A stretch of DNA of 64,000 nucleotides from Deltaproteobacteria bacterium (GTDB lineage: Bacteria > Desulfobacterota > GWC2-55-46 > UBA9637 > GWC2-42-11). Below, in pieces: positions 2,630 through 60,917 of this stretch; position 1 is the stretch's first letter; the number at the start of each line of letters is the position of its first letter. Location: positions 6,555-70,554 of the forward strand of contig JACRNI010000024.1 in NCBI GenBank assembly GCA_016234925.1, read 5' to 3'. A program made the translations under genes and the position numbers. The notes under the pieces are model-generated. The model did no database searches. It was not told where the DNA came from and saw only the letters and a program-made list of their open reading frames with translations.

Positions 2630-2802
2630 TACGAACGCAATAAATGTCCGACCCATGCTTTGCACGGGTGCCCCACTGCGTTGGGCTCCTCGGAAAATCC
2701 CCAACATACTAAAAAGTATGCCTGCGGTTTTCCATCGTCGTCCGCCTTGTCTAAAGCCATTTCTTGAGTTCGTTATGCTGTCATTTTTTTATTGCGTTTG
2801 TA

Positions 2803-3830: not shown

Positions 3831-4014
3831 TCCGTAAAATAGCGATTTAAAACCTCGCTATTTTACAAACCTGCGATTTGCCCGCCATACTTCGTTATCG
3901 GCGCATTTTTGCTCCTCACCGTATTGGTGATATACGGCTCGTCGCAAAAATGGCCTCTGCCTCGTCTGGCAGCCAACTTGCAGGTTTCCCCAAAAATCAA
4001 AGTCTATTTTTGGG
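3831..4014 (+). repeat. ~185-nt structured repeat, family A, copy 1
   Basis: Near-identical to 6577..6783 and, in reverse complement, to 12672..12856 and 25698..25882. Bounded by hairpins 'gtaaaatagcga...tcgctattttac' and 'cccaaaaat...atttttggg'. Confidence 0.6.
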
Positions 4015-6576: not shown

Positions 6577-6783
6577 TCCGTAAAATAGCGATTAAAAACC
6601 TCGCTATTTTACAAACCTGCGATTTGCCCGACCCAAGCTTCGCTTGGGTGCCCCGACTTCGTTATCAGCCATTTTTGCTCCTCACCGTATTGGTGATATA
6701 CGGCTCGTCGCAAAAATGGCCTCTGCCTCGTCTGGCAGGCAACTTGCAGGTTTCCCCAAAAATCAAAGTCTATTTTTGGGATG
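6577..6783 (+). repeat. family A repeat, copy 2 (extra internal hairpin)
   Basis: Same sequence as 3831..4014 with an inserted hairpin 'acccaagcttcgcttgggtg'. Confidence 0.6.
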
Positions 6784-8107: not shown

Positions 8108-9263
<1,156 letters not shown>

Positions 9264-12671: not shown

Positions 12672-12856
12672 CCCAAAAATAGACTTTGATTTTTGGGGAA
12701 ACCTGCAAGTTGGCTGCCAGACGAGGCAGCGGACTATTTTTACGACGAGCCGTATGTTCACCGATACGGTGAGGAGTAAAAATTGTCCGATAACGAAGTA
12801 TGGCAGCCAAATCGCAGGTTTGTAAAATAGCGAGGTTTTTAATCGCTATTTTACGG
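12672..12856 (-). repeat. family A repeat, copy 3 (inverted)
   Basis: Reverse complement of 3831..4014. Confidence 0.6.
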
Positions 12857-18019: not shown

Positions 18020-19204
18020 ATGACAAAAAAACATCTAATTGCTGCAGTTATTATGATTGCAGCCGCATTTGCAGTTTATTCAAATACATTTTATGCCTCG
18101 TTTCACTTTGATGACATCCCTAACATAGTTGAAAATCCAAAGATAAAAAATGTTAATAACATTCCTGAAATGGTGACAGCAGGCTCAAGGGGAATAACAA
18201 TGGCAACATTTGCATTAAATTATTATTTTGGCGGTTTAAATGTAATCGGTTATCATATTGTAAACATTACAATACATGCCATAAACGGGATACTTGTGTA
18301 TTTCATCCTTTATATGACATTTAATCTGCCGTCACTCCGAGAGACCTTTGGTGATAAGTCATACAGACTTGCCTTGTATGCCTCGCTTTTATTTTTAGTC
18401 CACCCTATACAAACGCAGGCTGTAACATACATAGTTCAGAGATTGGAAATCCTTGCGTCGCTATTTTATCTCCTAGCATTGTTTCTATTTATAAAAGGTT
18501 CTATAGCAGAAGGCGTATTAAAAAAGACGATGTTTTTTAGCGCCGTTGTCTTATCATACATACTTGGTATATTCTCAAAGGAGATTGCAGTAACCCTTCC
18601 TGCTGTAATACTTCTCTATGATTATTATTTTATTGCTGATAAGGATTTAAAGGGGGTTTTAAAAAGGCTCCCTGTCTATGCAATATTGTTTGTTATAACA
18701 ATGGCATTTTCATTTAAGGTGCTTGCAAGCCTTGGCGGTTTTGGCGACTTGAGCGAGCAGTCTGCTGGTTTTGGCGTAAAGACAATATCTCCAAAAGAAT
18801 ATCTCTTTACGCAGTTCAATGTAATATGGACATATATAAGACTCCTGTTCCTGCCGATAAACCAGAACCTTGATTACGATTACCCGATTGCAAAAACGCT
18901 TTTTGAATTTCCAACTATTCTGTCATTTATTGGCATAATTGCCCTTATCGCGACTGCTATTGTATTTCACAGTTCAAAAATTAAGGTTTATGGCGCAAGG
19001 CTCATCTCATTTTTTATCCTCTGGTTTTTCATCATACTTTTGCCGACATCGTCTTTTATCCCGATACTTGATGTAATATTTGAACACAGGATTTATCTTG
19101 CCTCTGTTGGTTTTGCGGCAATATTTGCAGTTGTATTTGACAGGGTCTTTGAAATCATAGAGGCAAAATTGTCAAAATCAAAACCTGCAGAACAAAAGGG
19201 TTAA
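18020..19204 (+). CDS. GT-C family (TMTC/PMT-like) polytopic membrane glycosyltransferase domain protein
   Basis: Paralog of the N-termini of 21081 and 23029 ('FHFDDIPNIVENP', 'LVHPIQTQAVTYI', 'NQNLDYDYP'). Lacks the TPR tail. Confidence 0.6.
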   Translation: MTKKHLIAAVIMIAAAFAVYSNTFYASFHFDDIPNIVENPKIKNVNNIPEMVTAGSRGITMATFALNYYFGGLNVIGYHIVNITIHAINGILVYFILYMTFNLPSLRETFGDKSYRLALYASLLFLVHPIQTQAVTYIVQRLEILASLFYLLALFLFIKGSIAEGVLKKTMFFSAVVLSYILGIFSKEIAVTLPAVILLYDYYFIADKDLKGVLKRLPVYAILFVITMAFSFKVLASLGGFGDLSEQSAGFGVKTISPKEYLFTQFNVIWTYIRLLFLPINQNLDYDYPIAKTLFEFPTILSFIGIIALIATAIVFHSSKIKVYGARLISFFILWFFIILLPTSSFIPILDVIFEHRIYLASVGFAAIFAVVFDRVFEIIEAKLSKSKPAEQKG

Positions 19205-19217
19205 TGGGGCATGGGCA

Positions 19218-19859
19218 ATGGGTTATAGGTTTTCTTTATTACCTATTGCCTATTGCCTTTTTTTTATTCTCTTCTTTTTATCCATTCTGACATATTCAAG
19301 AAATCTTATCTGGACAGACCAGTTTACCCTTTGGTCAGATACTCAAAAAAAATCTCCGAACAAAGCAAGACCTTATAATGATATTGGGAATGTCTATCTG
19401 CTTCAGAATAAGTTCGGCGAGGCAATGGAGATGTATCAAAAGGCGATTTCATTAATGCCTGATTTTTATGAGGCGCATTATAATCTTGGCATAATATATT
19501 CAAGATACGGCATGTGGAGCGGCGCAATAAAAGAATTCAGGAATGCGCTTGACAGCGGCGGTGGCGGAGAATATAGAATCCATTATAGATTGGGCGATGC
19601 CTTTGCTGGAAAAGGGATGTTTGAAGACGCAATAAAGGAATATAGTAATGCACTGATGTTAAGACCTGACGATGCAGATGTTTACTATGGTCTTGCCCGT
19701 GTGTATTCATTAAAAATGGAAAAAGATATTGCTATAGATTATCTTGCAAAGGCAATAAAAAATGGGTTTCAAGATTATGAAATTATGTCAACAGATAAAG
19801 GATTAGATAATATAAGAAATGATAAAAGGTATAAGGCTATTGCTGCTGGAAAAAGGTGA
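19218..19859 (+). CDS. TPR-repeat protein with N-terminal TM helix (possible detached C-terminal half of 18020)
   Basis: 'SPNKARPYNDIGNVY' linker motif shared with the TMTC-like fusions. Different frame from 18020. Confidence 0.55.
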   Translation: MGYRFSLLPIAYCLFFILFFLSILTYSRNLIWTDQFTLWSDTQKKSPNKARPYNDIGNVYLLQNKFGEAMEMYQKAISLMPDFYEAHYNLGIIYSRYGMWSGAIKEFRNALDSGGGGEYRIHYRLGDAFAGKGMFEDAIKEYSNALMLRPDDADVYYGLARVYSLKMEKDIAIDYLAKAIKNGFQDYEIMSTDKGLDNIRNDKRYKAIAAGKR

Positions 19860-20084
19860 TGGTGTCTTTTAAAAGATTTAATCTATGGTCAGGGTGTTTT
19901 GTATTTCTTATAACATCCATTACTATCTTTCTTACTGTCAGGGCTTCGGATGAGGACAGGTGGAGCGACTGGGCTTTTGGTGATGCCTAGACCCTAGTGG
20001 GGAGAGGGGTATATAAATTTTTCTCTTGTATTTGTATTAATGACCTGTTAAATAAAGGGAAGATTTTAAATATTTTAGAAGGGG

Positions 20085-20914
20085 ATGTTAGCCATGTTGA
20101 AAAAAAGTTTTGTCAATATCCTGCTTTTTTCATTCCTGCTTGTGGGTCCTGCCTTTACAGAAGCCCAAACTTGTGCCATTGATTACAACAAGCCCACCAT
20201 AGCCGCAGGGTTCCACCACACCGCGGGGCTCAAGGAAGATGGAATGTGGTGGCAGTGGGATATAATTGCTGTGGCGAAATGGATGTTTCGGATTGGACCA
20301 ATATAAAGGCAATAGCATCTGGATGGTACCACACAGTCGGGCTCAAGGAAGATGGGACTGTGGTGGTAGGGGGTTATTTTACTGAAAAGGTCTCGGATTG
20401 GACCAATATAAAGGCAATAGCAGCTGGATGGACGCACATCGTTGGGCTCAAGGAGGATGGAACTGTGGTGGCAGTGGGATATAACCGGGATGGTCAACTG
20501 GATGTCTCAGGTTGGACAAATATCAAGGCAATTGCTGCTGGAGTGTACCACACCTTGGGGCTCAAGGAGGACGGAACTGTGGTGGCAGTGGGATATAATT
20601 ATTTTGGCCAACTGAATGTCTTGGACTGGACCAATATAAGACAACCGAGTTGCATAATAGAATATACCGCGCTTCCAGAATTTATAAGTACACTACCAGG
20701 CATATCCCCGCAAGTTCTTACCAGCCTTGTATCAAAGGCTAAAAGTGCCATAGCATCATTTGAAAACTGGAATACCGGGGCTGCGATAAATAAGTTAAAT
20801 GCCCTGCTTAATGAGATTACTGCTCAGTCCGGGAAGAAGATAGATGCTGATACAGCAGCTACGCTGACAAAATATGTTCAAAACCTTATAATCTATATTC
20901 AGAGTAATAAATAA
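20085..20914 (+). pseudogene. secreted RCC1-like beta-propeller repeat protein, frameshifted
   Basis: Signal peptide; repeats 'GLKEDGTVVAVGYN...WTNIKAIAAG'. A 1-nt deletion ('ggaatgtgg' versus 'ggaactgtgg' in later repeats) splits it into ORFs 20085..20306 and 20246..20914. Confidence 0.6.
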
Positions 20915-21080
20915 GGCAATCCCCTGCCCCCACCTTTGTCCTCCACCACAAAGGGGGAGGACAAAGGTGGGGAGTATTAAAGTAAGAGAAGGTGAGGTTG
21001 ATGGGGTTTTTCGGGGCAAACAAATCCTATTTTTATACATCCATTGCCTTTCTAAAAACTTTTTGCTATATTAAAAAAAG

Positions 21081-23036
21081 GTGGATGCTTTCAAAGATAC
21101 AAAACCTCTTTTTTATACAATCCTTATTATTATAATCCTTTCTATTTTAGGTTTCTTTGCCTATTCAAATATACTCCATGCCCCATTTGTATTTGATGAT
21201 GACCATTATATTGTAAACAATCCAGAAATAAGAGACCTCTCAAATTTCAAAGACACATACGGCACAAGGTATGTTGGTTTTTTAAGTTTTGCAATAAACT
21301 ATTATTTTAATGGGCTGAATACATTTGGTTACCACCTTGTAAATATTGTAATCCATATCTTAAATGCAATACTTGTATATGTTTTGGTGCAAATTACATT
21401 ACAAAGGGTTCAAGGGTTCAAGGGTTCGAGGGTTCAAGAAAATACTAGACCCCTAGACTCCTTGACCCCTAGAATCCTTCCTTTTGCTGTTTCTCTAATA
21501 TTCCTTGTCCATCCTATACAGACTCAGGCAGTTTCATACATAACGCAGAGGTTTGCATCTCTTGCAGCGTTTTTTTATCTTCTGGCAATTGTGTTGTATG
21601 TAAAGGCAAGGGTTCTAGGGTTCGGGGGTTCAAGGGTTCAAGAAAACACTAGACCCCCAGACCCCTTGACCCCTGGAACCCTTTATGTTTTTTCTATTCT
21701 TTCCGCCATCCTTGCCATGAAAACAAAGGAGATCAGTTTTACCCTGCCGATTATAATCATCCTCTATGAGTTTACATTTTTTAGCGCTAAAGACTCACGG
21801 ACATGGACACGGTTTTTATATCTCGCTCCATTTCTTTTAACACTTGCAATCATTCCTTTAAACCTTTTCTTTTATTCAGGCAAAGGTATTGCGCAACATT
21901 TGAGCGAGCAGCAGGTTGTGGATATAAATAGAAATTCACCTGCATATGACCATTTTATTACGCAGTTTAAGGTAACAGTTACATACATAAGGCTATTATT
22001 TTTACCTGTAAACCAAAATTATGATTATGACTATCCTATGTCCCATTCTGTATTTGAAGTTCAAGCCCTTTTATCATTTCTCTTTTTGCTCTCAATAGTT
22101 ATCGCTGCAATTTATCTATATATACGGTCATGGAAGAGAGATAATGGCTACGGTCTTTTAATTTCCTTTGGCATATTGTGGTTTTTCATAACCTTATCAG
22201 TAGAAGCCCGCATAAGAAATGATATAATCTTTGAACACAGGGTATATCTGCCGAGCGCAGGATTTACATTGTCTTTTATAACATCTATCTTTTACGGTTT
22301 TGAATACCTTGAAAGAAGATTAAAGAGGTCTTTGTTTGCATACCTTTTAATATTCATTTTAACCGCAAGCATTTTTCTTTTATTTGCTGCAATAAAGAGA
22401 AATATGGTTTGGAAAAGCGAAGAGGGTATTTATTTAGATACAGTAAACAAATCTCCAAATAAGGCAAGGCCGCATAATTATCTTGCTGGCTTTTATGAAA
22501 AAACAGGCCGTATTGATGAGGCAATAAAAGAGGTTAACATTGCATTGTCTCTGCCTTCCAGCCTTCACTACTTTCATCATTATAATCTCGGTATCGGGTA
22601 CCAGAAAAAGGGTCTTTTAAATGATGCTGTTGATGAATTTTTGTCAGCCATAAAACTTAAAGTTGATTATTTGGATGCATACCGCAGCCTTGGTATAATA
22701 TTTGTTGAATTGGGCAGATTTGAAGATGCTGAGAAAAATATTAAAAAGGCTTTAGAATTGCAGCCAACATCTAATGTGTTGCATAACACCCTCGGCAATA
22801 TCTATCTTATGCAGGGTAAATATAGAGAATCTATAGTTGAATATGAAAAGGCTTTTAGCCTTGATAAGAATAATGTTGAGGCAATATACAATATTGCAAT
22901 GGCATATGAGAATATTGGCAGTAAAGATAAGTCCATAGAATTCTATAAGAAATTTATTGAAATGTCTCATCCTGATTATGAGAATGAGAAAGAACGCGCT
23001 AAAACACGGATAAAGGAATTAACTAAAAATGATTGA
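21081..23036 (+). CDS. TMTC-like GT-C glycosyltransferase fused to TPR repeats (GTG start)
   Basis: N-terminal polytopic domain with 'FVFDDDHYIVNNP'; C-terminal TPRs; two in-frame repeat-derived segments 'GFKGSRVQENTRPLDSLTPRI' and 'GFGGSRVQENTRPPDPLTPG'. Confidence 0.65.
   Translation: MDAFKDTKPLFYTILIIIILSILGFFAYSNILHAPFVFDDDHYIVNNPEIRDLSNFKDTYGTRYVGFLSFAINYYFNGLNTFGYHLVNIVIHILNAILVYVLVQITLQRVQGFKGSRVQENTRPLDSLTPRILPFAVSLIFLVHPIQTQAVSYITQRFASLAAFFYLLAIVLYVKARVLGFGGSRVQENTRPPDPLTPGTLYVFSILSAILAMKTKEISFTLPIIIILYEFTFFSAKDSRTWTRFLYLAPFLLTLAIIPLNLFFYSGKGIAQHLSEQQVVDINRNSPAYDHFITQFKVTVTYIRLLFLPVNQNYDYDYPMSHSVFEVQALLSFLFLLSIVIAAIYLYIRSWKRDNGYGLLISFGILWFFITLSVEARIRNDIIFEHRVYLPSAGFTLSFITSIFYGFEYLERRLKRSLFAYLLIFILTASIFLLFAAIKRNMVWKSEEGIYLDTVNKSPNKARPHNYLAGFYEKTGRIDEAIKEVNIALSLPSSLHYFHHYNLGIGYQKKGLLNDAVDEFLSAIKLKVDYLDAYRSLGIIFVELGRFEDAEKNIKKALELQPTSNVLHNTLGNIYLMQGKYRESIVEYEKAFSLDKNNVEAIYNIAMAYENIGSKDKSIEFYKKFIEMSHPDYENEKERAKTRIKELTKND
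21406..21477 (+). repeat. family C element (tandem GGGTTCAAG units + 'actagaccc...cttgaccc'), inserted in-frame in a CDS
   Basis: Repeated at 21610..21681, 23348..23419, 23552..23623 and 35426..35484. Confidence 0.65.
21610..21681 (+). repeat. family C element, in-frame in CDS
   Basis: See 21406..21477. Confidence 0.65.
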
Positions 23037-25101
23037 AAAAGAGAAAACATCCATAAGAACCTTTATTATTATAGCAGTGATTTTTATTTTAGGGTTTCTT
23101 ATTTATTCAAACACCCTTTACAACCCATTTATATTCGATGACGAAATCTATATTGTTGATAATTATCAAATAAGAGACATTTTAAATTTTACTGATTTTT
23201 CTGGTACACGATATATTGGTTTGTTAAGTTTTGCTATAAATTATTATTTTGGCGGATTAAATACATTTGGCTACCATCTTGTAAATATTGTAATTCATAT
23301 AATAAATGCAATACTTGTCTATTTTTTGGTGCAAATTACATTACAAAGGGTTCAAGGGTTCGAGGGTTCGAGGGTTCAAGAAAATACTAGACCACTAGAC
23401 TCCTTGACCCCTAGAATCCTTCCTTTTGCTGTTTCTCTAATCTTCCTCGTTCATCCTATACAGACTCAGGCAGTTTCATACATAACCCAGAGATTTACAT
23501 CTCTTGCAACGCTTTTTTATATTCTGGCAATTGTGCTGTATGTAAAGGCAAGGGTTCTAGGGTTCGGGGGTTCAAGGGTTCAAGAAAACACTAGACCCCC
23601 AGACCCCTTGACCCATGGAACCCTTTATGTTTTTTCCATTCTTTCCACCATCCTCGCAATGAAGACAAAGGAGATAAGTTTTACACTGCCTTTTATAATT
23701 GTTCTTTATGAGTTTACATTTTTTAATAATTTGGACTCACGACCCACGATCCGCAATTCACAACTCAAAACACGGCTTTTGTATCTAACCCCATACCTTT
23801 TAACACTTATGATTATTCCATGGGAACTTTTTTTGGCAGGCGAAGGTTTTGAGCAATGGTTAAGACAGCAGCAATTGGCAGATATAAGCAATTTGTCAAA
23901 GCATGATTATCTTCTTACCCAGTTTGGTGTGATAGTTACATATATAAGATTGCTTTTTCTGCCAATCAATCAAAATTTTGATTACGATTACCACATAGCC
24001 CATTCTATATTTGAGGTTTCGACTCTTTTATCATTTCTCTTTTTAATTTCAATATTTTCTTTTGCAATTTATCTATATGTATGGTCACGAAAGACAGGTA
24101 ACAGTTACGGTCTTTTAGCCTCCTTTGGCATGCTTTGGTTTTTTATAACCTTATCAGTAGAATCTTCTATAATACCAATAAGGGATGTTATCTTTGAACA
24201 CAGGGTATATCTGCCAAGCATCGGGGCAATTATTGCATTCAATACAGGTTTATTTTATGGACTTGAAAATGTGAAAACAAGATTGTCTATAAAATCATCT
24301 GTAATAATTGCGTTATTTTTATCTATAATTTCTGCTTTTACCATTATATTTTCTATTGCAACTTACAAGAGAAACTTTATATGGGGAGATTTGATGACTA
24401 TGGCATTGGATATGTTAAAAAAATCTCCGAATAAGGCAGATGTGAGAAATGAAGTAGGTATGCACTATTTTAAAAAAGGTCTTCTAGATAAAGCAAAGAG
24501 CGAGATTCAAAAGGCAATTAGCCTTCAGCCCGATTTTTTTATGGCATATAATAACCTTGGTTTAATATATCTAAAAAAAGGACTATTAGAAGACGCGGAA
24601 AGGTTTTTTAAAAAGGCAATTGAGATAAAGCCTGATTATTCTGCGGCACATGAAAATCTTGGCACTGTACTTTTGGAAAATGGCCTGATTGATGAGGCGC
24701 TAAAAGAGTATGAGATTGCAATTATGATGAAGGAGTCTCCCAGATTATATAATAAAATAGGGGTGCTTTATTTAAAACTAGGTAATAGAGATACTGCTAT
24801 AAAGGCGTTCAAAGAGGCGATAAGACTTGAGCCGCAAGGTGTAACTCCATATGCCAACATGGGTTTTGCGTATTTTGATAAAGGTGATTATGACAAGGCA
24901 ATGGAGATGCATGGAAAGGCAATAAAAATAATGCCGAATTTTGCAAATGCGCATTATGGTTTGGCAGAAGTTTATGAGAAAAAAGGGGTGAGAGATAAGG
25001 CAGTAGAGCATTACAAGAAATATATAAAATATGCAGACCCCAAGGAACAGTTTGTTGAAAAGGCAAAGAAGAAGATTACCGAACTGGGGAAAACTGAGTG
25101 A
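23029..25101 (+). CDS. TMTC-like GT-C glycosyltransferase fused to TPR repeats (tandem paralog)
   Basis: Same architecture and the same two in-frame repeat insertions as 21081..23036. Confidence 0.65.
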   Translation: MIEKEKTSIRTFIIIAVIFILGFLIYSNTLYNPFIFDDEIYIVDNYQIRDILNFTDFSGTRYIGLLSFAINYYFGGLNTFGYHLVNIVIHIINAILVYFLVQITLQRVQGFEGSRVQENTRPLDSLTPRILPFAVSLIFLVHPIQTQAVSYITQRFTSLATLFYILAIVLYVKARVLGFGGSRVQENTRPPDPLTHGTLYVFSILSTILAMKTKEISFTLPFIIVLYEFTFFNNLDSRPTIRNSQLKTRLLYLTPYLLTLMIIPWELFLAGEGFEQWLRQQQLADISNLSKHDYLLTQFGVIVTYIRLLFLPINQNFDYDYHIAHSIFEVSTLLSFLFLISIFSFAIYLYVWSRKTGNSYGLLASFGMLWFFITLSVESSIIPIRDVIFEHRVYLPSIGAIIAFNTGLFYGLENVKTRLSIKSSVIIALFLSIISAFTIIFSIATYKRNFIWGDLMTMALDMLKKSPNKADVRNEVGMHYFKKGLLDKAKSEIQKAISLQPDFFMAYNNLGLIYLKKGLLEDAERFFKKAIEIKPDYSAAHENLGTVLLENGLIDEALKEYEIAIMMKESPRLYNKIGVLYLKLGNRDTAIKAFKEAIRLEPQGVTPYANMGFAYFDKGDYDKAMEMHGKAIKIMPNFANAHYGLAEVYEKKGVRDKAVEHYKKYIKYADPKEQFVEKAKKKITELGKTE
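23348..23419 (+). repeat. family C element, in-frame in CDS
   Basis: See 21406..21477. Confidence 0.65.
23552..23623 (+). repeat. family C element, in-frame in CDS
   Basis: See 21406..21477. Confidence 0.65.
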
Positions 25102-25697: not shown

Positions 25698-25882
25698 CCC
25701 AAAAATAGACATTGATTTTTGGGGAAACCTGCAAGTTGGCTGCCAGACGAGGCAGCGGACAATTTTTGAGACGAGCCGTATGCTCACCGATACGGTGAGG
25801 AACAAAAATTGGTCGATAACGAAGTATGGCAGCCAAATCGCAGGTTTGTAAAATAGCGAGGTTTTTAATCGCTATTTTACAA
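25698..25882 (-). repeat. family A repeat, copy 4 (inverted)
   Basis: Reverse complement of 3831..4014. Confidence 0.6.
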
Positions 25883-25945
25883 AATGACATTTGTCTTGAC
25901 CGTTTCAAAACTGGTGTGATATTTTTAAAACTTTAAAAAGGTATT

Positions 25946-31702: not shown

Positions 31703-31704
31703 TT

Positions 31705-31758
31705 GGTAGCCGCAGGCTTTAGCCTGCGGTATTTACGCAACCTAAAGGTTGCGGCTAC
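31705..31758. repeat. REP/BIME-like element, family B
   Basis: 'ggtagccgcaggctttagcctgcg...cgcaacctaaaggttgcggctac'. Confidence 0.7.
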
Positions 31759-31777
31759 ATTTCAAAATGGAGGTTCA

Positions 31778-32599: not shown

Positions 32600-33679
32600 A
32601 TGAGCAAATATAAGATTGCTGTTTTATCAGGCGACGGCATAGGTCCTGAAATAGTTGGCGAGGCTGTAAAGGTTTTAAGGGCAATCGGCAAAAAGTATAA
32701 AATCTGTTTTGAAACCAAAGATACCCTTGTCGGCGGCGCATCCATTGATAAATACGGCATACCGCTTACAGATGAAACTTTAAAACTTGCAAAGGAAAGC
32801 GATGCAGTTTTGTTAGGCGCTGTGGGCGGTCCAAAGTGGGAAGGGCTTGATTACTCCATAAGACCAGAAAGGGCTTTGCTTGCCTTGAGAAAAGAACTCG
32901 GACTCTTTGCAAATTTAAGACCTGCAAAAATCTATCCTGTTCTTGCAGATGCATCAACACTCAAAAAAGAGGTTATTGAAGGTGTTGACATTATGGTTAT
33001 AAGGGAACTTACAGGCGGATTATATTTCGGTACGCCAAAGGGCGTTGAAAAACTCCCTGACGGCACAGAGCGCGGGGTTAATACAATGGTCTATACAACT
33101 TCAGAGATTGAAAGGATTGCAAGGGTTGCGTTTGATGTTGCAAGAAAGAGGAGAAAAAAGGTTACATCAGTTGACAAGGCGAATGTGCTTGAAACAACAG
33201 AACTATGGAGAAGGGTTGTTATAAATGTCCACAAAGATTATCAGGATATTGAACTTAATCATATGTATGTTGACAACTGCGCCATGCAGTTGGTTAGAAA
33301 CCCAAAACAGTTTGATGTAATAGTTACTGAAAATATGTTTGGCGATATTTTGTCTGATGAGGCAGCAATGCTTACAGGTTCAATCGGCATGCTCCCATCT
33401 GCAAGCCTTGGCGGCAAAGTTGGCATGTATGAGCCGATTCATGGAAGCGCGCCTGATATTGCAGGAAAGGACATCGCAAATCCCATTGCGACAATTTTGT
33501 CAGTTGCAATGATGCTCAAATTTTCATTTAACCTTGGAAAAGAGGCTGATGATATTGAAAAGGCAGTTGAGAATGTTTTGAATAAAGGCTTTCGTACACA
33601 GGACATAAAACAGGAAGGTATGAAAGTAGTGGGCTGCAGAGAGATGGGGAATGTTATTGTTGAGGAGATAGAAAGATGA
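32600..33679 (+). CDS. leuB: 3-isopropylmalate dehydrogenase
   Basis: '[15 protein letters not shown]'; '[27 protein letters not shown]'. Confidence 0.95.
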
Positions 33680-34509
33680 AAAAGAAAAAATACAATGTCG
33701 CTGTTGCAGGCGCTACAGGCATGGTTGGACAGGAGTTTTTGAAAATCCTTGAACAGAGGGATTTTCCTATTGATAAGATAAAACTTTTGGCATCAGAAAG
33801 GTCTGCCGGGCAATATCTTGAATTCAGGGGCAAAGAGGAAAAGGTTCATCTCCTTTCAAAAGAAACATTTGAAGGAATAGACATCGGGCTTTTTTCACCG
33901 GGCGCATCTGTTTCAAAGGTCTATGCGCCTATTGCAGCAAAGGCAGGGTGTGTTGTTATAGACAATACAAGCCAGTTCAGGATGGAGCCTGATATTCCGC
34001 TTGTTGTGCCAGAGGTGAACCCAAAGGCAATTGCGCAGTATAAAAAGAGAAATATCATTGCAAACCCGAACTGTTCAACAATCCAGATGGTTGTCGCATT
34101 AAAGCCGATACATGATGCGGCAAAAATCAAGGAACTCAAGATGGTGAATGAGACAAAGAAAATCATGGATGATTCTATAAAGGTTACGGCAACGACCGTT
34201 CGTGTGCCTGTTTTTAACAGTCATTCTGAAAGCGTCAACATAGAAACAGAGAAAAAAATCACAGCAAAAGAAGTTAGAAAAATCCTTTCAAATGCGCCCG
34301 GCGTAAAGGTTTTGGATGACCCTGAAAATAAGGTCTATCCAATGCCAATAGAAGCATCCGAAAATGATGAGGTTTTTGTCGGGAGGATAAGAGAGGACGA
34401 TACCATACCGAATGGCATAAATATGTGGATTGTGTCTGACAATATAAGAAAAGGCGCTGCGCTTAATGCCGTGCAGATTGCAGAGGTTTTGATAAAAGAA
34501 TATTTATAA
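33676..34509 (+). CDS. asd: aspartate-semialdehyde dehydrogenase, unusually short (apparent in-frame ~69-aa internal deletion)
   Basis: '[12 protein letters not shown]', '[10 protein letters not shown]', '[13 protein letters not shown]' are present. The 'STYQAVSGAG...' segment between 'IHDAAKIKE' and '[11 protein letters not shown]' is absent. 277 aa versus about 340. Confidence 0.8.
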
Positions 34510-34575
34510 CTACAGGCTATAGGCAATGGGCAAGAGGCAATATGAAAAACCAATGAACCCATAGCCTATCGCCTA

Positions 34576-35421
34576 TTGCCTGTTTTTATGCGTAATATTA
34601 AAATCATCATTGAATACGAAGGCACGAATTATGCTGGATGGCAGGAGCAAAAGGAATCACCTACTATTCAGGGAACAATACAGGACAAAATAAAAATCAT
34701 AACACGCGAAGATGTCCAATTAACCGCAGCAGGCAGGACAGATGCAGCCGTTCATGCGCTTGGACAAACCGCAAATTTTTATTCAAATACCAATATAGAA
34801 TCATTTGCTTTGCAGAGGGGCTTAAACAGCCTTCTGCCGTCAGACATTGTTATAAAAAAAGTTGAGGATGCAAGTCTTGAATTTGATGCAAGGAAAGATG
34901 CAAAGAGTAAAACCTATAAATATCTCATCCTGAACAGAGCCTATCCATCAGCCGTCCATAGAAATTTTTCATGGTTTGTCCCCTATAAACTTGACATAGA
35001 TTTAATGAAAAGAGGCGCAGAGTTTCTTATAGGTGAAAAGGATTTTTCATCATTCAGGGCATCTGCCTGCGAGGCATCTCACGCAATAAGGGAGATAATT
35101 TCAATCACTATTGAAACGTTTACTAACCCCCTCACCTTAATCCTCTCCCCAGAGGGGAGAGCGGGTACCCATCCGAAGGATGGGTGGGGTGAGGGGGGAT
35201 TTTCGGAACAGAGAGAAAAAGATGACTTTATTGCTATTGAAGTTAAAGGTACGGCATTTCTGATGCACATGATTAGGATAATAGTCGGCACACTGACTTT
35301 ACTGGGCAGGGGCAAGATTTCAATTGATGATTTTAAAAATATTATTGAGGCAAAAGACAGGACAAAGGCAGGGATGACAGCGCCTCCGCATGGTTTGTTT
35401 TTAAAAGAGGTAGAGTATTAA
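34576..35421 (+). CDS. truA: tRNA pseudouridine(38-40) synthase
   Basis: 'IEYEGTNYAGWQEQ', 'AAGRTDAAVHALGQ'. Contains the in-frame repeat segment 'PLTLILSPEGRAGTHPKDGWGEGG'. Confidence 0.85.
   Translation: MPVFMRNIKIIIEYEGTNYAGWQEQKESPTIQGTIQDKIKIITREDVQLTAAGRTDAAVHALGQTANFYSNTNIESFALQRGLNSLLPSDIVIKKVEDASLEFDARKDAKSKTYKYLILNRAYPSAVHRNFSWFVPYKLDIDLMKRGAEFLIGEKDFSSFRASACEASHAIREIISITIETFTNPLTLILSPEGRAGTHPKDGWGEGGFSEQREKDDFIAIEVKGTAFLMHMIRIIVGTLTLLGRGKISIDDFKNIIEAKDRTKAGMTAPPHGLFLKEVEY
35127..35202. repeat. G-rich palindromic element, family D ('cccctcaccttaatcctctcccca..ggggagag..gggtgagggggg'), in-frame in truA
   Basis: Also at 50273..50322; partial at 30167..30202. Confidence 0.6.
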
Positions 35422-35425
35422 AAAA

Positions 35426-35484
35426 GGGTTCAAGGGTTCAAGGATTCAAGGGGTCTAGTGAAAAAACACTTCAACCCTCCACCC
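35426..35484. repeat. family C-related element (intergenic)
   Basis: 'gggttcaagggttcaaggattcaaggggtctagtg...'. Confidence 0.55.
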
Positions 35485-35492
35485 CTATTTTT

Positions 35493-41057: not shown

Positions 41058-41097
41058 GTTACGTTGTGAATATCGCAGGCTAAAGCCTGCGGCTACC
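41041..41097. repeat. REP/BIME-like element, family B
   Basis: Supplies the stop codon of the kinase gene. Confidence 0.7.
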
Positions 41098-41107
41098 CGT
41101 AAATCTT

Positions 41108-42466: not shown

Positions 42467-42498
42467 AGACAGGGGGCAAGGGTCAAGGGGTCAAAAAG

Positions 42499-42556
42499 TG
42501 GTAGCCGCAGGCTTTATGCCTGCGAAATATCGCACCCATAAAGGGTGCGGCTACCT
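42499..42556. repeat. REP/BIME-like element, family B
   Basis: Preceded by GGGTCAAGG 9-mers at 42466..42498. Confidence 0.7.
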
Positions 42557-44765: not shown

Positions 44766-44784
44766 ATTGGGCAAATAAAAGTAG

Positions 44785-55714: not shown

Positions 55715-55772
55715 ATACAGGCAATAGGCGATAGGCTATAGGTGATATATGTCTAGGGGGTTCAAGGGATAT

Positions 55773-55827
55773 GGTAGCCGCAACCTTTACGGTTGCGTTT
55801 TTTCGCAGGCATAAAGCCTGCGGCTAC
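55773..55827. repeat. REP/BIME-like element, family B
   Basis: Preceded by 'gggggttcaaggg'. Confidence 0.7.
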
Positions 55828-55853
55828 CTAGAACCCTACTAATTTATAAGGTA

Positions 55854-56493: not shown

Positions 56494-59179
56494 ATGATAA
56501 CCATTCATACAAAAAATATTTTTCCAGTTCAAGACAAACCGCTATTTGATGACATAGAGTATCTAAAAAATATCCTTTATCAAGCGCTTGCTGAACAAGC
56601 AGGCAGCCGTTTTCTAAAAATCATAGATAATCTAACCGCTGCCAGCTTAAAACACCCAATCAAAACCCAACTCCCAAATATGATAAGGCAGATTGATATG
56701 ACCATATCCAATCAGGTTATACAGGCATATGCAATAAATTTTCAATTGACAAATCTTGCTGAGGAAAATTTTGGCATGCAGGATAGGCGGCGGCTAATTA
56801 AGAATGGAATGTCTGTGTCCGGCTCTATTGAAGACTGTATAAGCACATTTAAGAAAAACGGCATTTCACCCCGTGCAATAGAAAAGATGCTTGCAAGACT
56901 CTCCATAGTGCCTGTGATTACGGCGCATCCGACAGAGGTAAAGAGGCGGACAGTCCTTGAAAAGCACAGAAATATATATCTCACAATATTCAAGAAAGAA
57001 AACCCAATCTGGACGACAAGGGAAAGGGATTTGTTAAGGGACAATATATTGGGCGATGTTTTAAAACTCTGGCACACAGGCGACATAAGGCTTGAAAAGC
57101 CCAATATAGAGGAAGAGGTTGAAAACGGCCTTTTCTATTTTAATAAAACATTTTTTGAGGTTCTGCCGAAACTGTATGATGAACTAAAATTTCAATTAAG
57201 TAAATATTATCCTGACTATGATTTTAAAATCCCGCAAATCTTGTCATTTGGAAGCTGGGTCGGCGGGGACAGGGATGGAAATCCATTTGTAACAAGTAAA
57301 AAAACAAGATGGACATTTAAGAGGCATAAGGAACTTATTCTGTCAAAATATATTGAAACTGTTTCAAGTTTGATCTCAAGGCTCAGCATCTCAAGACATC
57401 TTGTTTCTGTAAGTAAAGAAATACTTACATCAATCAAAGAAGATGCAATAAACATGGGTATTGATGGGCAGACGCTCATCAGCAGAAATCCGCACGAGCC
57501 GTACAGGCAGAAACTTTCTCTTATAAAAAGGAAACTGGAAAATACATTAAAAACAGGGTCAAGGGTCAATCGTCAAGGGTCAAGGGTAGAAGAAACTGTA
57601 ACTCAAGGCTTTAGCCTTGAAGGCATCAAACCTGAAGGTTTGAGTTACAGATGTTGTAAAGACAGGGTATCTTGCCTTGCCGGAGCATGAAAAAATCAAA
57701 ATATTGTCAAAAGAACTTTTGAGCATAAGGCCCCTTGTGCCTGTTTACAGCCATATTACAGAAGAGACCAGAGAGGTTTTGAACACGTTTAAAAGCATCA
57801 AAGAGGCTCAGGAAGAGATTTCATGGGATGCTGTCGGCTCATATATAATCAGCATGACACACCATGCAAGCGATGTTTTGACGCTGCTGCTCCTTGCAAA
57901 AGAGGTTGGTCTTTGCGGCATAGACGGCGACGGCAGGGTATTTAACAGGATTGATATAGCGCCTTTATTTGAAACAATCGGTGATTTGCAGAGACTGCCG
58001 AAGATATTGAATGACCTGTTTAATAATGAGACATACAAAAGGTATCTTGCAGAAAGGGATGATGTTCAAGAGATTATGCTGGGTTATTCGGACTCATGCA
58101 AAGACGGCGGCATACTTACATCCAACTGGGAATTATACAAGGCGCAGAAAAAAATCACCGCGATTGGGATGGACTGCGGCGTAAACATCAGACTGTTTCA
58201 CGGTAGAGGCGGGACAGTGGGCAGGGGAGGGGGACCAACACATAAGGCAATCCTTGCGCAGCCAAAAGGCACTGTTAACGGCTATATAAAAATGACAGAG
58301 CAGGGCGAGGTCATATCTTCAAAATATGCTAATCTTGGGACAGCGGCATATAACCTGAATCTGCTTGCTGCCGGAGTTATGGAGGCAGCAATAGAAACAG
58401 GGGCAAGGGGCAAGGGGCAGAGGTCAAGAAAAGAAAAGATTTATGAGGATGCGTTTGAGAAAATATCTGAAATATCCTACAGACTATACAGGGAATTGAT
58501 TGAGGATAAAGATTTCCTCACATACTTTGAGCAGGCAACGCCGATTGATGAACTTGAACATCTAAAAATCGGTTCAAGGCCAAGTTATAGGTCAGCCCCT
58601 GATAGATTCAATCAGGGGTTGCCTGACATTAAAAAAGTTGAGGATTTAAGGGCGATTCCTTGGGTTTTTTCATGGAACTTGTCAAGGCATATTATACCGG
58701 GCTGGTATCCGTTTGGCTCTGCAATAAAAAACTGGGTCAAGGGTCAAGGGTCAAGGGACAAGGGGAAAAAACTTTTAAAAGAGATGTATAGAGACTGGTT
58801 ATTCTTCTCTAACCTCGTTGACAATATCCAGATGGTCATTGCAAAGGCAGATATGGATATTGCTAAACTCTACGCCTCTCTTGTAAAGGATAAAAGTGTA
58901 AGAGATGGGATTTATAAAAAAATCAAAAAAGAGTTTGATTTAACCGTTAAAATGATTTTAATGATTACAGGGCAGAAAAATATATTGGATAATGACAAAT
59001 TCTTGCAGCGGTCAATAAATTTAAGAAGGCCAAATATTGACCCTGTTGATTATATGCAGGTGGATTTAATAAGAAAGATAAGGGATAAAAATATAAAGGG
59101 AGAGAAAAGGCAGAGGGTCATAAAAACACTTATGGCAAGCATAAACTGCATATCAGCAGGACTAAGAAATACTGGATGA
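56494..59179 (+). pseudogene. ppc: phosphoenolpyruvate carboxylase, frameshifted at ~57640 next to a GGGTCAAGG repeat insertion
   Basis: 'VITAHPTEVKRRTV' in ORF1; 'GYSDSCKDGG' and 'FHGRGGTVGRGGGP' in ORF2 (TTG-start frame). Repeat-encoded 'GSRVNRQGSRV' and 'GQGSRDKG' segments. Confidence 0.8.
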
Positions 59180-59189
59180 GGAATACGGG

Positions 59190-60917
59190 ATGAGAAAAGA
59201 CAGGGTCAATAGTCAATGGTCAAGGGTAAGTAGAAACATGGCTTTAGCCATGTTAATTAACAGGTCTAAAGACCTGTTTCTACATCTTACATCTCACATC
59301 TTACATCTTACGCTGCTTATTACTGTTTTAACATCCTGCACCAATCCCTCTATCTCCAGCAATTTACCAGATGTCAAAGACAAAACCCCTGCCCACGGCG
59401 ACACAATCATTGAAGGGCTTGGCGCTGAGCCGACTGTCTTGATACCTGTTCTTGCGCAGGACACTGCATCCCATGATGTTGCAGGGCTTGTATTCAATGG
59501 TCTTGTAAAATATGACAAGGACTTGAGTCTAATCGGAGATTTGGCAGAATCATGGGAGATTTCAAAAGACGGGCTTATAATAACATTCCATTTGAGAAAA
59601 GGAGTTAAGTGGACAGACGGCATTGAATTTACAGCAGAGGATGTTTATTTCGGATACAAGACGATTATAGACGAGAAGACGCCGACTGCGTACAAAGAGG
59701 ATTTTTTACAGGTTAAAAATGCAGAGGTCATTGACAAATATACTTTTAGAGTAACTTATGAAAAACCATTTGCGCCAGCCTTGTCAACATGGGGGAGTCT
59801 GCCAATCCTTCCCAAGCATTTGCTGGAAGGCAAGGATATAACAAAGAGTGATTTGGGAAGAAAACCCCTCGGCATGGGGCCATTCATATTCAAGGAATGG
59901 GTTGCAGGACAGAAGGTTGTTTTAGATTCAAACCATGATTATTTTGAAGGCAGACCATATATTGACAGATACATCTACCGCATAATCCCTGACCCTGCAA
60001 CAATGTTTCTTGAATTAAAAACAGGCGCAATTGACTGGATGGGGCTTACACCGCTTCAATTCACAAGGCAGACAGACACACCATATTTTAAAAATAATTA
60101 CAAAAAATACAGATACCCTGTATTTGTTTATACATACATGGGATTTAATCTGAAAGACCCTAGATTTAAAGATAAAAAAATCAGACAGGCGATTGCACAT
60201 GCAATTGACAAAGAGGAGATTGTTAATGGCGTCTTGTTCGGTCTCGGCAGTCCTGCAACAGGGCCATATGTCCCTAACACATGGGTCTATAATCCGAATG
60301 TTAAAAAATATGTATATAATTTAGAAAAGGCAAAGCAACTATTAAAAGATGCTGGCTGGGCAGATACCAATGGAGACGGCATACTTGACAAAAACGGCAG
60401 ACCATTTGAACTTACAATCTCAACAAGCGTTGGAAACACAACAAGAATCAAGGTTGCAACAATAATCCAGTGGAGGCTCCAGAAAATCGGCATCAAGGTA
60501 ACCATTCGCACTTATGAATGGTCAACATTTATAAATGAAAGAATCAACAAGAAAAGATTTGAGGCAGTGATTTTAGGCTGGAGCATAGGTCTTGACCCTG
60601 ACCAGTATGACATATGGCACTCAAGCAAGACAAAGGAAAAGGAATTTAATTTTATAGATTACAAAAATCCCGAGATAGATGAGTTGCTTGAAAAAGGCAG
60701 ACGCACATTTGATATAGAAGAAAGAAAAAAGGCATATTTCAGGATTCAAGAGATTTTGGCAGACGATGTGCCTTACATATTTTTATATGTGCCTGATGCG
60801 CTTGTGATTATAAACTCAAGGTTTCAGGGCATTGAACCCGCTCCCATCGGCATAAGTTACAACCTACATAAATGGTATGTGCCAAAGGAGATGCAGAAAT
60901 ACAGGATGGCGCCGTGA
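59190..60917 (+). CDS. ABC transporter substrate-binding protein, family 5 (Opp/Dpp-like) lipoprotein
   Basis: Lipobox 'LTSC'; SBP_bac_5-like body. The annotated 5' end runs through repeat elements, so the true start is uncertain. Confidence 0.75.
   Translation: MRKDRVNSQWSRVSRNMALAMLINRSKDLFLHLTSHILHLTLLITVLTSCTNPSISSNLPDVKDKTPAHGDTIIEGLGAEPTVLIPVLAQDTASHDVAGLVFNGLVKYDKDLSLIGDLAESWEISKDGLIITFHLRKGVKWTDGIEFTAEDVYFGYKTIIDEKTPTAYKEDFLQVKNAEVIDKYTFRVTYEKPFAPALSTWGSLPILPKHLLEGKDITKSDLGRKPLGMGPFIFKEWVAGQKVVLDSNHDYFEGRPYIDRYIYRIIPDPATMFLELKTGAIDWMGLTPLQFTRQTDTPYFKNNYKKYRYPVFVYTYMGFNLKDPRFKDKKIRQAIAHAIDKEEIVNGVLFGLGSPATGPYVPNTWVYNPNVKKYVYNLEKAKQLLKDAGWADTNGDGILDKNGRPFELTISTSVGNTTRIKVATIIQWRLQKIGIKVTIRTYEWSTFINERINKKRFEAVILGWSIGLDPDQYDIWHSSKTKEKEFNFIDYKNPEIDELLEKGRRTFDIEERKKAYFRIQEILADDVPYIFLYVPDALVIINSRFQGIEPAPIGISYNLHKWYVPKEMQKYRMAP
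59230..59283. repeat. REP/BIME-like element, family E (gtagaaac-hairpin-hairpin-gtttctac)
   Basis: Inverted copy at 63015..63063; hairpins 'aacatggctttagccatgtt' and 'aacaggtctaaagacctgtt'. Confidence 0.65.

What the first reader, a model, noticed from the sequence alone, without database searches (positions are those of the whole stretch)
21406..23623. Palindromic repeat (family C: tandem GGGTTCAAG units) inserted in-frame into loops of both TMTC-like paralogs, twice each, and into other genes
A ~70-nt element ('gggttcaagggttc.agggttcaag aaaa.actagaccc..agac.ccttgacccctagaa.cc') occurs at two positions in each of the tandem paralogs 21081 and 23029. It preserves the reading frame and adds ~23-aa segments ('GFKGSRVQENTRPLDSLTPRI', 'GFGGSRVQENTRPPDPLTPG') exactly where the insertion-free paralog 18020 has short loops ('LRETFGDKSYRLA', 'SIAEGVLKKTM'). 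Related GGGTCAAGG 9-mer runs are in-frame in ppc (57557..57592 and 58735..58768) and in the SBP 5' end (59203..59228). A related short segment sits in the pilR REC domain ('APCPLPLS'). This behaves like Rickettsia RPEs or Neisseria NEMIS: mobile palindromes that seed new peptide segments in proteins.
Basis: seen in the sequence. Interest (0 to 1): 0.6.

Follow-up and report, generated by a model that had tools for sequence, protein, structure and literature searches.

The report
Hairpin repeats translated inside protein loops
A 76-base hairpin-forming DNA repeat that normally sits between genes has been taken up, in frame, into two flexible loops of a membrane glycosyltransferase in an uncultured groundwater bacterium, and related genomes have filled the same two loops with different repeats, so this is a recurrent way of adding protein loop segments and not a one-off.

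Summary
Four 76-nt copies of a palindromic repeat lie in frame in two tandem GT-C/TPR ("TMTC-like") paralogs, and a fifth copy is intergenic. Each arm holds four 8-nt GGGTTCAA-type units.

- The four copies reflect two acquisitions. They reached both paralogs by duplication and a gene-conversion tract.
- The "9-mer" runs elsewhere are 7-mers.
- The ppc gene is broken at its element, not cleanly extended.

The segments are not family-wide loops. Of 120 homologues, only four proteins carry them. AlphaFold places them as the only low-confidence coils of a confident GT-C model.

Other homologues carry different hairpin repeats, in frame, at the same two loops. TruA shows the same pattern at one loop, with an empty allele in a relative. 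GGGTTCAA arrays occur in MAGs of many phyla. About 8% are read in frame (RecG, UvrD, EPSP synthase, UbiX, Slt).

Best reading: an RPE-like dispersed palindrome that lands at A-rich Lys-codon sites in permissive loops and survives when one frame is open. How it moves is unknown, and I found no transposase among the 50 ORFs scanned. I rate it a new variant of a known kind, of moderate interest.

The parts
21404..21479 (+). Family-C element, copy A1 (site 1 of paralog A). It has 4 GGGTTCAA/G units, the loop AAGAAAATACTA and 4 TAGACCCC-type units, and encodes RVQGFKGSRVQENTRPLDSLTPRI.
   Evidence: -37.1 kcal/mol, z -4.3; 1 of 6 frames open. AF2 coil at aa 111-128, pLDDT 47-65.
21608..21683 (+). 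Family-C element, copy A2 (site 2 of paralog A). It encodes RVLGFGGSRVQENTRPPDPLTPGT.
   Evidence: (-43.3 kcal/mol). AF2 coil at aa 179-197, pLDDT about 62. 67/76 identical to A1.
23346..23421 (+). Family-C element, copy B1 (site 1 of paralog B).
   Evidence: 74/76 identical to A1.
23550..23625 (+). Family-C element, copy B2 (site 2 of paralog B).
   Evidence: 75/76 identical to A2.
35420..35492 (-). Intergenic family-C copy filling the whole truA-GT2 spacer, from the stop TAA (35419-35421) to the ATG at 35493. It is in the opposite orientation to the genic copies and its right arm has decayed.
   Evidence: (I13, I15, I16: 82-86% complementary to the genic copies). Relatives carry other elements at this spacer.
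55753..55839 (+). Partial family-C-like arms (CTAGGGGGTTCAAGGGATAT ... TAGAACCCTAC) bracketing a nested GGTAGCCGC-hairpin-hairpin-GCGGCTACC element (55773-55828).
21081..23036 (+). Host gene, paralog A: a GT-C-fold membrane glycosyltransferase with C-terminal TPR repeats (TMTC-like architecture).
   Evidence: TPR only in Pfam; models; Foldseek hits to AglB, PglB, STT3, Pmt, ArnT, Emb and ALG6.
23029..25101 (+). Host gene, paralog B, in tandem with A.
   Evidence: P0002.
21318..21734 (+). Tract that is 90-98% identical between paralogs A and B (partner about 23260-23676), spanning both elements. Read as a gene-conversion tract.
   Evidence: Flanking 60-nt windows are 40-78% identical. The gene in L001 is a mosaic of A and B.
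18020..19204 (+). Paralog lacking both family-C segments (membrane domain only).
19194..19265 (+). Heptamer-array hairpin (GGGCAAT type) at the junction that separates ORF 18020-19204 from its TPR half (ORF 19218-19859). The stop TAA and the next ATG both lie inside the element.
   Evidence: The same split is present in L001.

Best explanation
Family C is one member of a class of dispersed palindromic repeats. On either strand the 5' arm is a short array (about 4 units) of a G-rich 7- or 8-nt unit, and the 3' arm is its complement. The ends are often A-rich on the left and T-rich on the right.

In this lineage such elements normally fill short spacers between same-direction genes, flush with the stop codon and the next ATG. 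They turn over quickly between relatives.

I infer that two copies entered an ancestral GT-C/TPR gene at two loops whose host codons (T-F-K-T and Y-V/I-K) form A-rich sites resembling the element ends. They survived for two reasons. The one open frame of six matched the host frame, and the about 24-aa hydrophilic, Gly/Pro/Arg-rich peptides sit in disordered loops between membrane helices.

Tandem gene duplication, together with a gene-conversion tract, then placed near-identical copies in both paralogs.

Shown: lineage restriction, the intergenic counterpart, hairpin potential, frame filtering, loop location, recurrence at the same loops with other repeat families, and in-frame copies of the same class in other genes and genomes.

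Inferred: the order of events, the A-rich target preference (or a short-homology replacement of the original loop), and that the segments are translated. The mobilising mechanism is unknown.
For: - Statistics and structure of the copies.
- Only P0001-P0004 of 120 homologues carry the peptides, and most have short loops there.
- A separately assembled relative (L001) has both elements in frame, with the site-2 loop remodelled by +3 nt.
- Conversion tract.
- Inserts are the only internal low-pLDDT coils.
- Other homologues carry AGGCAAT-, AGGTATA-, GGGCAAT- and CAGCAAT-type arrays, and the nested GGTAGC...GCTACC element, in frame at the same two loops.
- The TruA loop has an empty allele and four different filled alleles at one A-run.
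- Orthologous spacers hold different elements in four relatives.
- The 18-mer occurs in more than 120 stretches from many phyla (about 17 expected by my own estimate). 28 of 124 runs have a downstream partner arm and none an upstream one. 10 of 124 lie in long ORFs; I ran Pfam on five of these, and all five are recognised genes.
- A-rich leaders occur in 21% of arrays against 3.7% background, and stop triplets within 15 nt upstream in 68% against 37%.
Against: - No filled/empty allele pair was found for the family-C sites themselves. The nearest element-free homologues are only 53-56% identical.
- No target-site duplication can be recognised, because the flanks are part of the palindrome.
- No transposase or HUH enzyme was found among the 50 ORFs scanned with Pfam.
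- The exact subfamily centre is essentially absent from JGI metagenomes, and its peptide from the protein collection. Recent activity of this subfamily is therefore not shown.
- Site 1 is unusually conserved (74/76 between genomes), which could also mean selection on the nucleic-acid structure.
- Translation of the segments is untested.
Confidence: 0.7

Rival explanations
1. The hairpins are kept in these genes because the nucleic-acid structure itself is functional. It could act as an intragenic attenuator or terminator, an RNase site, an mRNA-stabilising stem, or a switch between hairpin and G-quadruplex, since each 5' arm has exactly four GGG tracts. On this reading the peptide is a tolerated by-product.
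For: - Site 1 is 74/76 identical between genomes whose genes are 84% identical overall.
- Very stable folds.
- Site 2 is followed by TTTATGTTTTTT.
- G-rich heptamer arrays in Xanthomonas and Nostoc show a strong bias to four units and form G4 in vitro (PMC4692102).
- The arrays here also have about 4-5 units.
Against: - Site 2 in L001 has lost much of its inner pairing and changed its loop while staying in frame. This argues for a frame constraint more than a structure constraint.
- No compensatory changes were seen.
- The terminator scan does not flag the elements.
- Neighbouring windows that encode conserved helices are as conserved as the elements.
- Different lineages hold unrelated sequences at the same loops.
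Confidence: 0.15
2. The elements arose in place, by replication slippage of a short G-rich motif followed by a local inverted duplication. On this reading the similarity to intergenic arrays is convergent, and nothing moved.
For: - Heptamer arrays are thought to expand by polymerase slippage (discussed in PMC4692102 and PMC4679880).
- Many different unit sequences share one architecture in the window.
- Single-arm arrays are commoner than paired ones.
Against: - Sites 1 and 2 share 66-67 of 76 positions, including the non-repetitive loop AAGAAAA(T/C)ACTAG and the same pattern of variant units. They are copies of one sequence.
- The intergenic copy shares the GGGGTCTAGTG inner end (I13-I16).
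- The nested GGTAGC...GCTACC element found in frame in P0010 is not a tandem array at all, yet matches five intergenic copies in the window.
Confidence: 0.08
3. The segments are ancestral loops of this protein family, or artefacts of assembling a repeat-rich metagenome.
For: - Both loops vary in length across the family.
- The contig does carry suspicious defects: an asd deletion, fragmented phosphorylase and split ppc.
Against: - Only 4 of 120 homologues have the peptides.
- The same elements occur in a separately assembled Logan contig (L001) and in a protein from another NCBI MAG (P0004).
- The reading frames are intact over 651 and 690 aa, and the model is confident.
Confidence: 0.03

Closest known systems
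Rickettsia palindromic elements (RPEs)
   Same: Dispersed palindromic repeats found both between genes and in frame inside unrelated housekeeping genes. They add peptide segments at positions compatible with the fold (PMC10969869). This is the best functional analogy.
   Different: RPEs are about 100-150 bp, are specific to Rickettsia, encode a conserved peptide in each family, and do not have arms made of tandem 7- or 8-nt units. Family C is 76 nt, belongs to a class seen in many phyla, and many unrelated unit families use the same host loops. I could not test sequence relatedness, as no RPE sequences were available to me.
G-rich heptameric simple-sequence repeats of Xanthomonas and Nostoc (GGGAATC, GGGGA(C/T)T; Rehm et al. 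2015, PMC4692102), and cyanobacterial STRR heptamers (from my own knowledge)
   Same: G-tract units in arrays of about four. They lie mostly between same-direction ORFs, within about 50 bp of the stop codon, and vary extensively in length and sequence between close relatives. Some pairs can form inverted repeats. The window's intergenic arrays behave the same way.
   Different: That paper reports these arrays as under-represented in coding regions, and the passages I read do not mention in-frame protein segments. Here the unit can be 8 nt, paired arms forming long hairpins are common, and whole hairpins are translated.
Bacterial MITEs (Correia/NEMIS, ERIC, Nezha, Coxiella QMITE1/2)
   Same: Small non-autonomous inverted-repeat elements that are sometimes inserted in frame or extend ORFs (PMC10969869, PMC5896051).
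   Different: MITEs have defined terminal inverted repeats matching an IS, and target-site duplications. Here I found no duplication and no parent IS, the centre is variable, and the arms are arrays of short units.
Eukaryotic foldback transposons (Drosophila FB, Tetris)
   Same: Long inverted arms built from short tandem subrepeats, with a variable centre (PMC4079207 was listed; the architecture is from my own knowledge).
   Different: These are eukaryotic and kilobase-scale, and some copies carry a transposase. No relation beyond the architecture is implied.
REP/BIME and REPIN elements
   Same: Short extragenic palindromes at gene ends that form hairpins, and are present in many copies.
   Different: REPs are 20-40 bp with GTAG or CGTC heads and are linked to RAYT transposases (PMC3733652 abstract). 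No such head or enzyme was seen here, and REPs are defined as extragenic.

Membership tests
Rickettsia palindromic elements (RPE) | Palindromic repeat inserted in frame into unrelated protein genes, as well as lying between genes | tested here: met
   for the GT-C genes. for RecG, UvrD, EPSP synthase, UbiX and Slt in other genomes.
Rickettsia palindromic elements (RPE) | Belongs to one of the described RPE sequence families (about 100-150 bp, Rickettsia) | tested here: not met
   The length is 76 nt and the host is an uncultured 'Deltaproteobacteria' MAG. Sequence comparison with RPEs was not possible with these tools.
MITE | Terminal inverted repeats and small size (about 50-500 bp) | tested here: met
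   Two 32-nt arms in a 76-nt element.
MITE | Target-site duplication flanking the element | tested here: inconclusive
   The flanks (AAAGG ... CCTT) continue the palindrome. At the TruA loop, GAAA is retained on both sides of two other element families.
MITE | A parent IS or transposase with matching ends in the genome | not testable with these tools
   None was found among the 50 ORFs of the window scanned with Pfam. The rest of the MAG was not available.
G-rich heptameric SSR arrays (Rehm et al. 2015) | Tandem G-tract units, about four per array, next to stop codons between same-direction ORFs, and variable between relatives | tested here: met
   Family C has an 8-nt unit instead of 7 nt.
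G-rich heptameric SSR arrays (Rehm et al. 2015) | Forms a G-quadruplex | not testable with these tools
   The motif G3N5G3N5G3N5G3 is present in each 5' arm.
REP/REPIN | 20-40 bp palindrome with a GTAG or CGTC head, associated with a RAYT | tested here: not met
   The element is 76 nt with no such head, and no RAYT-like gene was found in the window.
Intrinsic terminator | G+C-rich hairpin followed directly by a T-run | tested here: not met
   The consensus scan flags none of the tandem-unit hairpins. Its rules do not allow the periodic mismatches, so this is weak negative evidence. Intergenic copies do end in TTTTT.
GT-C glycosyltransferase with TPR (TMTC-like) - host gene | GT-C membrane fold | tested here: met
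   Foldseek with the membrane-domain model gives top hits to AglB, PglB, STT3, Pmt1/2, Pmt4, ArnT, EmbA/B and ALG6, at probability 1.0 or 0.99.
GT-C glycosyltransferase with TPR (TMTC-like) - host gene | C-terminal TPR repeats, and an acidic motif in the first external loop | tested here: met
   TPR Pfam hits. D39 is invariant and D40 nearly invariant in FxFDD.
GT-C glycosyltransferase with TPR (TMTC-like) - host gene | Matches a curated sequence model of TMTC/PMT (e.g. DUF1736, PMT_2) | tested here: not met
   No Pfam family matches even at E up to 10, and there is no PDB sequence hit.

The most novel reading that the evidence does not exclude
These elements may be a cross-phylum, undescribed class of bacterial 'foldback' repeats: arrays of G-rich 7- or 8-nt units, always with the G-rich arm 5', and often with A-run and T-run ends. 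They would spread not by classical cut-and-paste but by landing at, or exchanging between, short ATAAA...TTTAT-like sites. That would repeatedly overwrite gene spacers and permissive protein loops, making them a general generator of loop diversity, and occasionally of gene fission, in uncultured anaerobes.
Probability: 0.25. Interest if true: 0.7.

Novelty: new variant of a known kind. Interest (0 to 1): 0.5.

Why it matters
In-frame uptake of palindromic repeats is known mainly from Rickettsia. This case shows the same process in free-living, uncultured groundwater and sediment bacteria, using a repeat class whose arms are arrays of short G-rich units. It also shows the same two loops of one enzyme family, and one loop of TruA, being colonised independently by different repeats.

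That offers a natural map of permissive loops. It warns annotators that odd low-complexity loop peptides and split genes in MAGs can come from repeats. It also provides a system for asking how such hairpins move, what they do in spacers that leave no room for a ribosome-binding site, and whether the hairpin or G-quadruplex structure matters.

Tried and rejected
- Rfam at gathering threshold found only one tRNA.
- No paper in the library holds the unit sequence.
- The metagenome scan with the element centre, AGGGTTCAAGN{4,12}CTAGACCCC, gave 13 hits. Nearly all look like chance matches and none is in a GT-C gene.
- The viral-contig scan gave 15 sparse hits and no phage link.
- A protein search with the two encoded peptides gave three weak hits in short hypothetical ORFs.
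- P0004's DNA is not on record.
- My first hairpin detector demanded too strict a register and was replaced.
- Foldseek with the full-length model was dominated by the TPR repeats. I repeated it with the membrane domain alone.
- The consensus terminator scan did not flag the elements, so 'terminator-like' rests only on my reading of the A/T-run flanks.
- I considered and rejected 'ancestral loops' and 'assembly artefact' (see the rival explanations).
- I considered a reverse-transcriptase or telomere-like origin for the G-rich arrays, but nothing supports it.
- Membrane topology of the two loops could not be settled. Counting helices allows either side. The K/R-rich native loops suggest the cytoplasmic side, which is inference only.


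Full report
**What is there**

The window (40% G+C) comes from a 72.7-kb contig of an uncultured 'Deltaproteobacteria bacterium' MAG.

At 21404-21479 and 21608-21683 (ORF 21081-23036), and at 23346-23421 and 23550-23625 (ORF 23029-25101), lie four copies of a 76-nt element. Each has four units of GGGTTCAA/G, a short loop AAGAAAA(T/C)ACTA, and four units of the near-complement (T/C)(A/T)GACCCC.

A 14-nt two-unit probe with up to two mismatches hits 18 times in the window, against 0.34 expected. Each copy folds into a long hairpin with one mismatch per unit, at -33 to -43 kcal/mol and z about -3.5 to -4.4. Rfam has nothing like it.

A fifth copy, in the opposite orientation and with a decayed arm, fills the whole spacer between truA and a GT2 gene (35420-35492). 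A partial pair of arms brackets another repeat at 55753-55839.

**Reading frame**

Each genic copy is open in exactly one of six frames. That frame is the host frame, and all four copies sit in the same codon phase.

A perfect array is open in all three sense frames but has TGA in every antisense frame. For the right arm to be read through, the one unit whose first triplet falls in frame must not start with TAG. In both sites that unit is TTG, while its neighbours are TAG, CAG or TGG (and direct reading of the sequence).

The encoded peptides are RVQGFKGSRVQENTRPLDSLTPRI and RVLGFGGSRVQENTRPPDPLTPGT. Both are hydrophilic and basic (GRAVY -0.96 and -0.82).

**Two events, not four**

- Copies at the same site in the two paralogs are 74/76 and 75/76 identical.
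- Site 1 and site 2 copies are 66-67/76 identical, including the non-repetitive loop.
- The stretch 21318-21734, which spans both elements, is 90-98% identical between the paralogs, while the flanks are 40-78% identical.

L001 is a syntenic contig from a close relative (Logan SRR22388055), 84-94% identical at the nucleotide level. It has a single element-bearing gene that is a mosaic of A and B. It lacks window 19883-22382.

I read this as two acquisitions in an ancestral gene, followed by tandem duplication and gene conversion. In L001 the site-1 element differs at two positions from each window copy. The site-2 element has a remodelled centre (+3 nt) but is still in frame.

**The host protein**

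Pfam sees only the C-terminal TPR repeats, and no PDB sequence matches.

An AlphaFold model built on 66 homologues is confident (pLDDT 90.5, pTM 0.89). A model of the membrane domain alone scores pLDDT 88.4 and pTM 0.91. With Foldseek it hits only GT-C glycosyltransferases at the top: AglB, PglB, STT3, Pmt1/2, Pmt4, ArnT, EmbA/B and ALG6.

'TMTC-like' is therefore right as an architecture (GT-C fold plus TPR), though no curated sequence model matches.

In both models the only internal low-confidence coils are residues about 111-128 and 179-197. These are the two element-encoded segments, lying between long membrane helices.

**Not ancestral loops**

Among 120 homologues, only the two window paralogs, P0003 (L001) and P0004 (another NCBI MAG) carry these peptides. 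Most members have short loops at both places.

**Recurrence at the same loops**

Several more distant homologues have odd, palindrome-like peptides at the same two loops. Their DNA shows other repeat families read in frame:
- **P0005:** AGGCAAT-type heptamer hairpins at both sites.
- **P0008:** AGGTATA and GGGCAAT hairpins, with AAAACAGG...CCTGCTTTTAT ends.
- **P0119:** CAGCAAT arrays.
- **P0010, site 2:** the nested GGTAGC-hairpin-hairpin-GCTACC element, which occurs five times between genes in the window.
- **P0017:** a duplication of the segment between the two sites.

The host codons on the left of both sites (T-F-K-T, reading ACATTTAAAAC, and Y-V/I-K, reading TATGTAAAG or TATATAAAA) and on the right (TTTTATAGCC or TTTAT) resemble the palindromic ends of the window's intergenic elements (ATAAA(A/G)ACAGG ... 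CCTGTTTTTAT).

This could explain why these loops are hit again and again. It could also explain why the net gain (+10 and +13 aa relative to paralog 18020) is smaller than the 25 codons of the element. This is inference, not a demonstrated mechanism.

**TruA gives a filled/empty series**

The family norm is 245 aa, but the window's TruA has 277. Close relatives carry nothing (P0124, 74% identical) or different segments of 9-50 aa at one loop.
- The empty allele reads ATAGAAAAAGAAGATGAC.
- The window holds a 71-nt nested double hairpin there (35127-35197).
- L129 holds a member of the GTAGGGC...GCCCTAC family.
- L127 and L128 hold a simple G/C hairpin.
- GAAA is kept on both sides in the window and L129.

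**Turnover in spacers**

The spacers on either side of truA hold different elements in four relatives.
- **Downstream:**
  - window: family C
  - L129: an AGGCAAT hairpin
  - L127: an unrelated hairpin
  - L128: ACGCATA heptamers
- **Upstream:**
  - window: AGGCAAT
  - L129: TACATCT
  - L128: CTTCAGC

These elements run from the stop codon to the next ATG and leave no recognisable ribosome-binding site.

**The class is widespread**

The 18-mer GGGTTCAAGGGTTCAAGG occurs in more than 120 stretches of GTDB representative genomes (Desulfobacterota, Nitrospirota, Acidobacteriota, Bacteroidota and others). I estimate about 17 hits by chance.
- Many share the layout: A-run, array, TCRAGTGAAAA, variable centre, TCACTYGA, complementary array, T-run.
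- Of 124 runs, 28 have a strong complementary arm downstream and none upstream. The G-rich arm is therefore always 5'.
- A-rich leaders (21% against 3.7% background) and nearby upstream stop triplets (68% against 37%) are enriched.
- Ten runs lie in long ORFs, always in the G-rich sense. Pfam, run on five of them, identifies RecG (KGSRVQGFKGSK...LDTLTPD), UvrD/PcrA, EPSP synthase (domain match split in two), a UbiX-type flavoprotein and an Slt transglycosylase.

The exact family-C centre is almost absent from JGI metagenomes, and its peptide from the protein collection. So the subfamily is lineage-restricted while the class is not.

- The runs in ppc, the SBP gene and pilR are 7-mer arrays.
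- ppc is split at the element 57553-57650. ORF1 reads through it to a stop at 57688, ORF2 is in another frame, and Pfam positions 355-439 are missing.
- The two further ppc runs and two pilR runs are single arms read in frame with small net length changes.

The contig also has defects unrelated to repeats. asd carries a clean 62-aa in-frame deletion, and the glycogen phosphorylase is in fragments. The ppc break may therefore be real or an assembly fault. The family-C copies are backed by separately derived sequences (L001 and P0004).

**Comparison with what is known**

In function this is closest to Rickettsia RPEs, the classic case of palindromic repeats inserted in frame into many genes (PMC10969869).

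In sequence architecture and intergenic behaviour it is closest to the G-rich heptamer arrays of Xanthomonas and Nostoc. Those have about four units, lie next to stop codons between same-direction genes, vary between relatives and can form G-quadruplexes (PMC4692102). The TAACTGA heptamers of Beggiatoaceae are another heptamer-array precedent (PMC4679880).

It is not a member of the RPE, Correia/NEMIS or REP families. It meets only the size and inverted-repeat criteria of MITEs. I found no transposase or HUH enzyme among the 50 ORFs of the window scanned with Pfam.

**Verdict**

The finding is real and the RPE-like reading is right in essence. It is better described as two old acquisitions of a lineage-restricted member of a widespread class of tandem-unit hairpin repeats. 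The same permissive loops have been colonised independently by other members in other genomes. How the elements move remains unknown.

Noticed in passing
window 19194-19265: A GGGCAAT-type heptamer hairpin sits exactly where the 18020 paralog is separated from its last membrane helix and TPR half (ORF 19218-19859). The stop TAA and the next ATG both lie inside the element. Paralogs A and B have this as one ORF, so this looks like gene fission caused by a repeat. L001 has the same split.
   Followed up: partly
window 56494-59179 (ppc), element at 57553-57650: ppc is in two ORFs in different frames, joined at a GGGTCAA array plus a nested hairpin. Pfam PEPcase positions 355-439 are missing. This could be a pseudogene, a repeat-mediated deletion or an assembly collapse.
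   Followed up: partly
window 35127-35197 (inside truA, 34588-35421): A 71-nt nested double hairpin (CCCCCTCACC ... GGGGTGAGGGGG) is read in frame in a TruA loop. Relatives have nothing, or other repeats, at the same A-run.
   Followed up: yes
window 31704-31767, 41032-41110, 42500-42555, 44783-44838, 55773-55828: A second repeat family: an outer stem GGTAGCCGC/GCGGCTACC enclosing two small hairpins (a three-way-junction shape). It is intergenic here, but is read in frame in the site-2 loop of homologue P0010 (L126), and a related form lies in TruA of L129. Rfam has no match at gathering threshold.
   Followed up: partly
window 25698-25880, 12672-12854, 3832-4014 (-), 6580-6781 (-): A repeat of about 185 nt with 4-5 copies, 92-100% identical. 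The copy at 25698-25884 is absent from the syntenic relative L001, so it is a recent insertion or deletion difference.
   Followed up: partly
window 34512-34583 and 35420-35492; L127, L128, L129: Hairpin elements fill the spacers completely, from the stop codon (TAA plus an A-run) to the next ATG (a T-run plus ATG), with no recognisable Shine-Dalgarno sequence. This raises the question of how the downstream genes are translated.
   Followed up: partly
window 33676-34509 (asd); 54130-55714 (glycogen phosphorylase fragments); 8319-9263 (AdoHcy hydrolase): asd has a clean 62-aa in-frame deletion relative to the orthologue in L128. The phosphorylase is reduced to two small overlapping ORFs, and AdoHcy hydrolase lacks its N-terminal part. 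There is no repeat at the asd breakpoint; I did not inspect the phosphorylase or AdoHcy hydrolase breakpoints. This suggests either a degraded population genome or assembly faults.
   Followed up: partly
window 41306-41337 and 42273-42308 (pilR-like ORF 41108-42466); 42469-42494: The sigma-54 activator carries two in-frame arrays. One is antisense GGGG(A/T/C)AA x4 in the receiver domain, and the other is CAGACAC x5 in the linker before the HTH. A third array starts 3 nt after its stop codon (42464-42466).
   Followed up: partly
L124 (P0017, gene 887-3154): In this homologue the conserved segment between the two loop sites (with the HPxQTQAV motif) is duplicated. The SNEQRAMSNEQ-type repeat peptides at the boundaries are consistent with unequal crossing-over between repeats at the two sites.
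   Followed up: no
window 20183-20914: An RCC1-repeat ORF built from 114-nt tandem repeats lies between the TPR gene and paralog A. This whole block (19883-22382) is absent from the syntenic contig L001.
   Followed up: no
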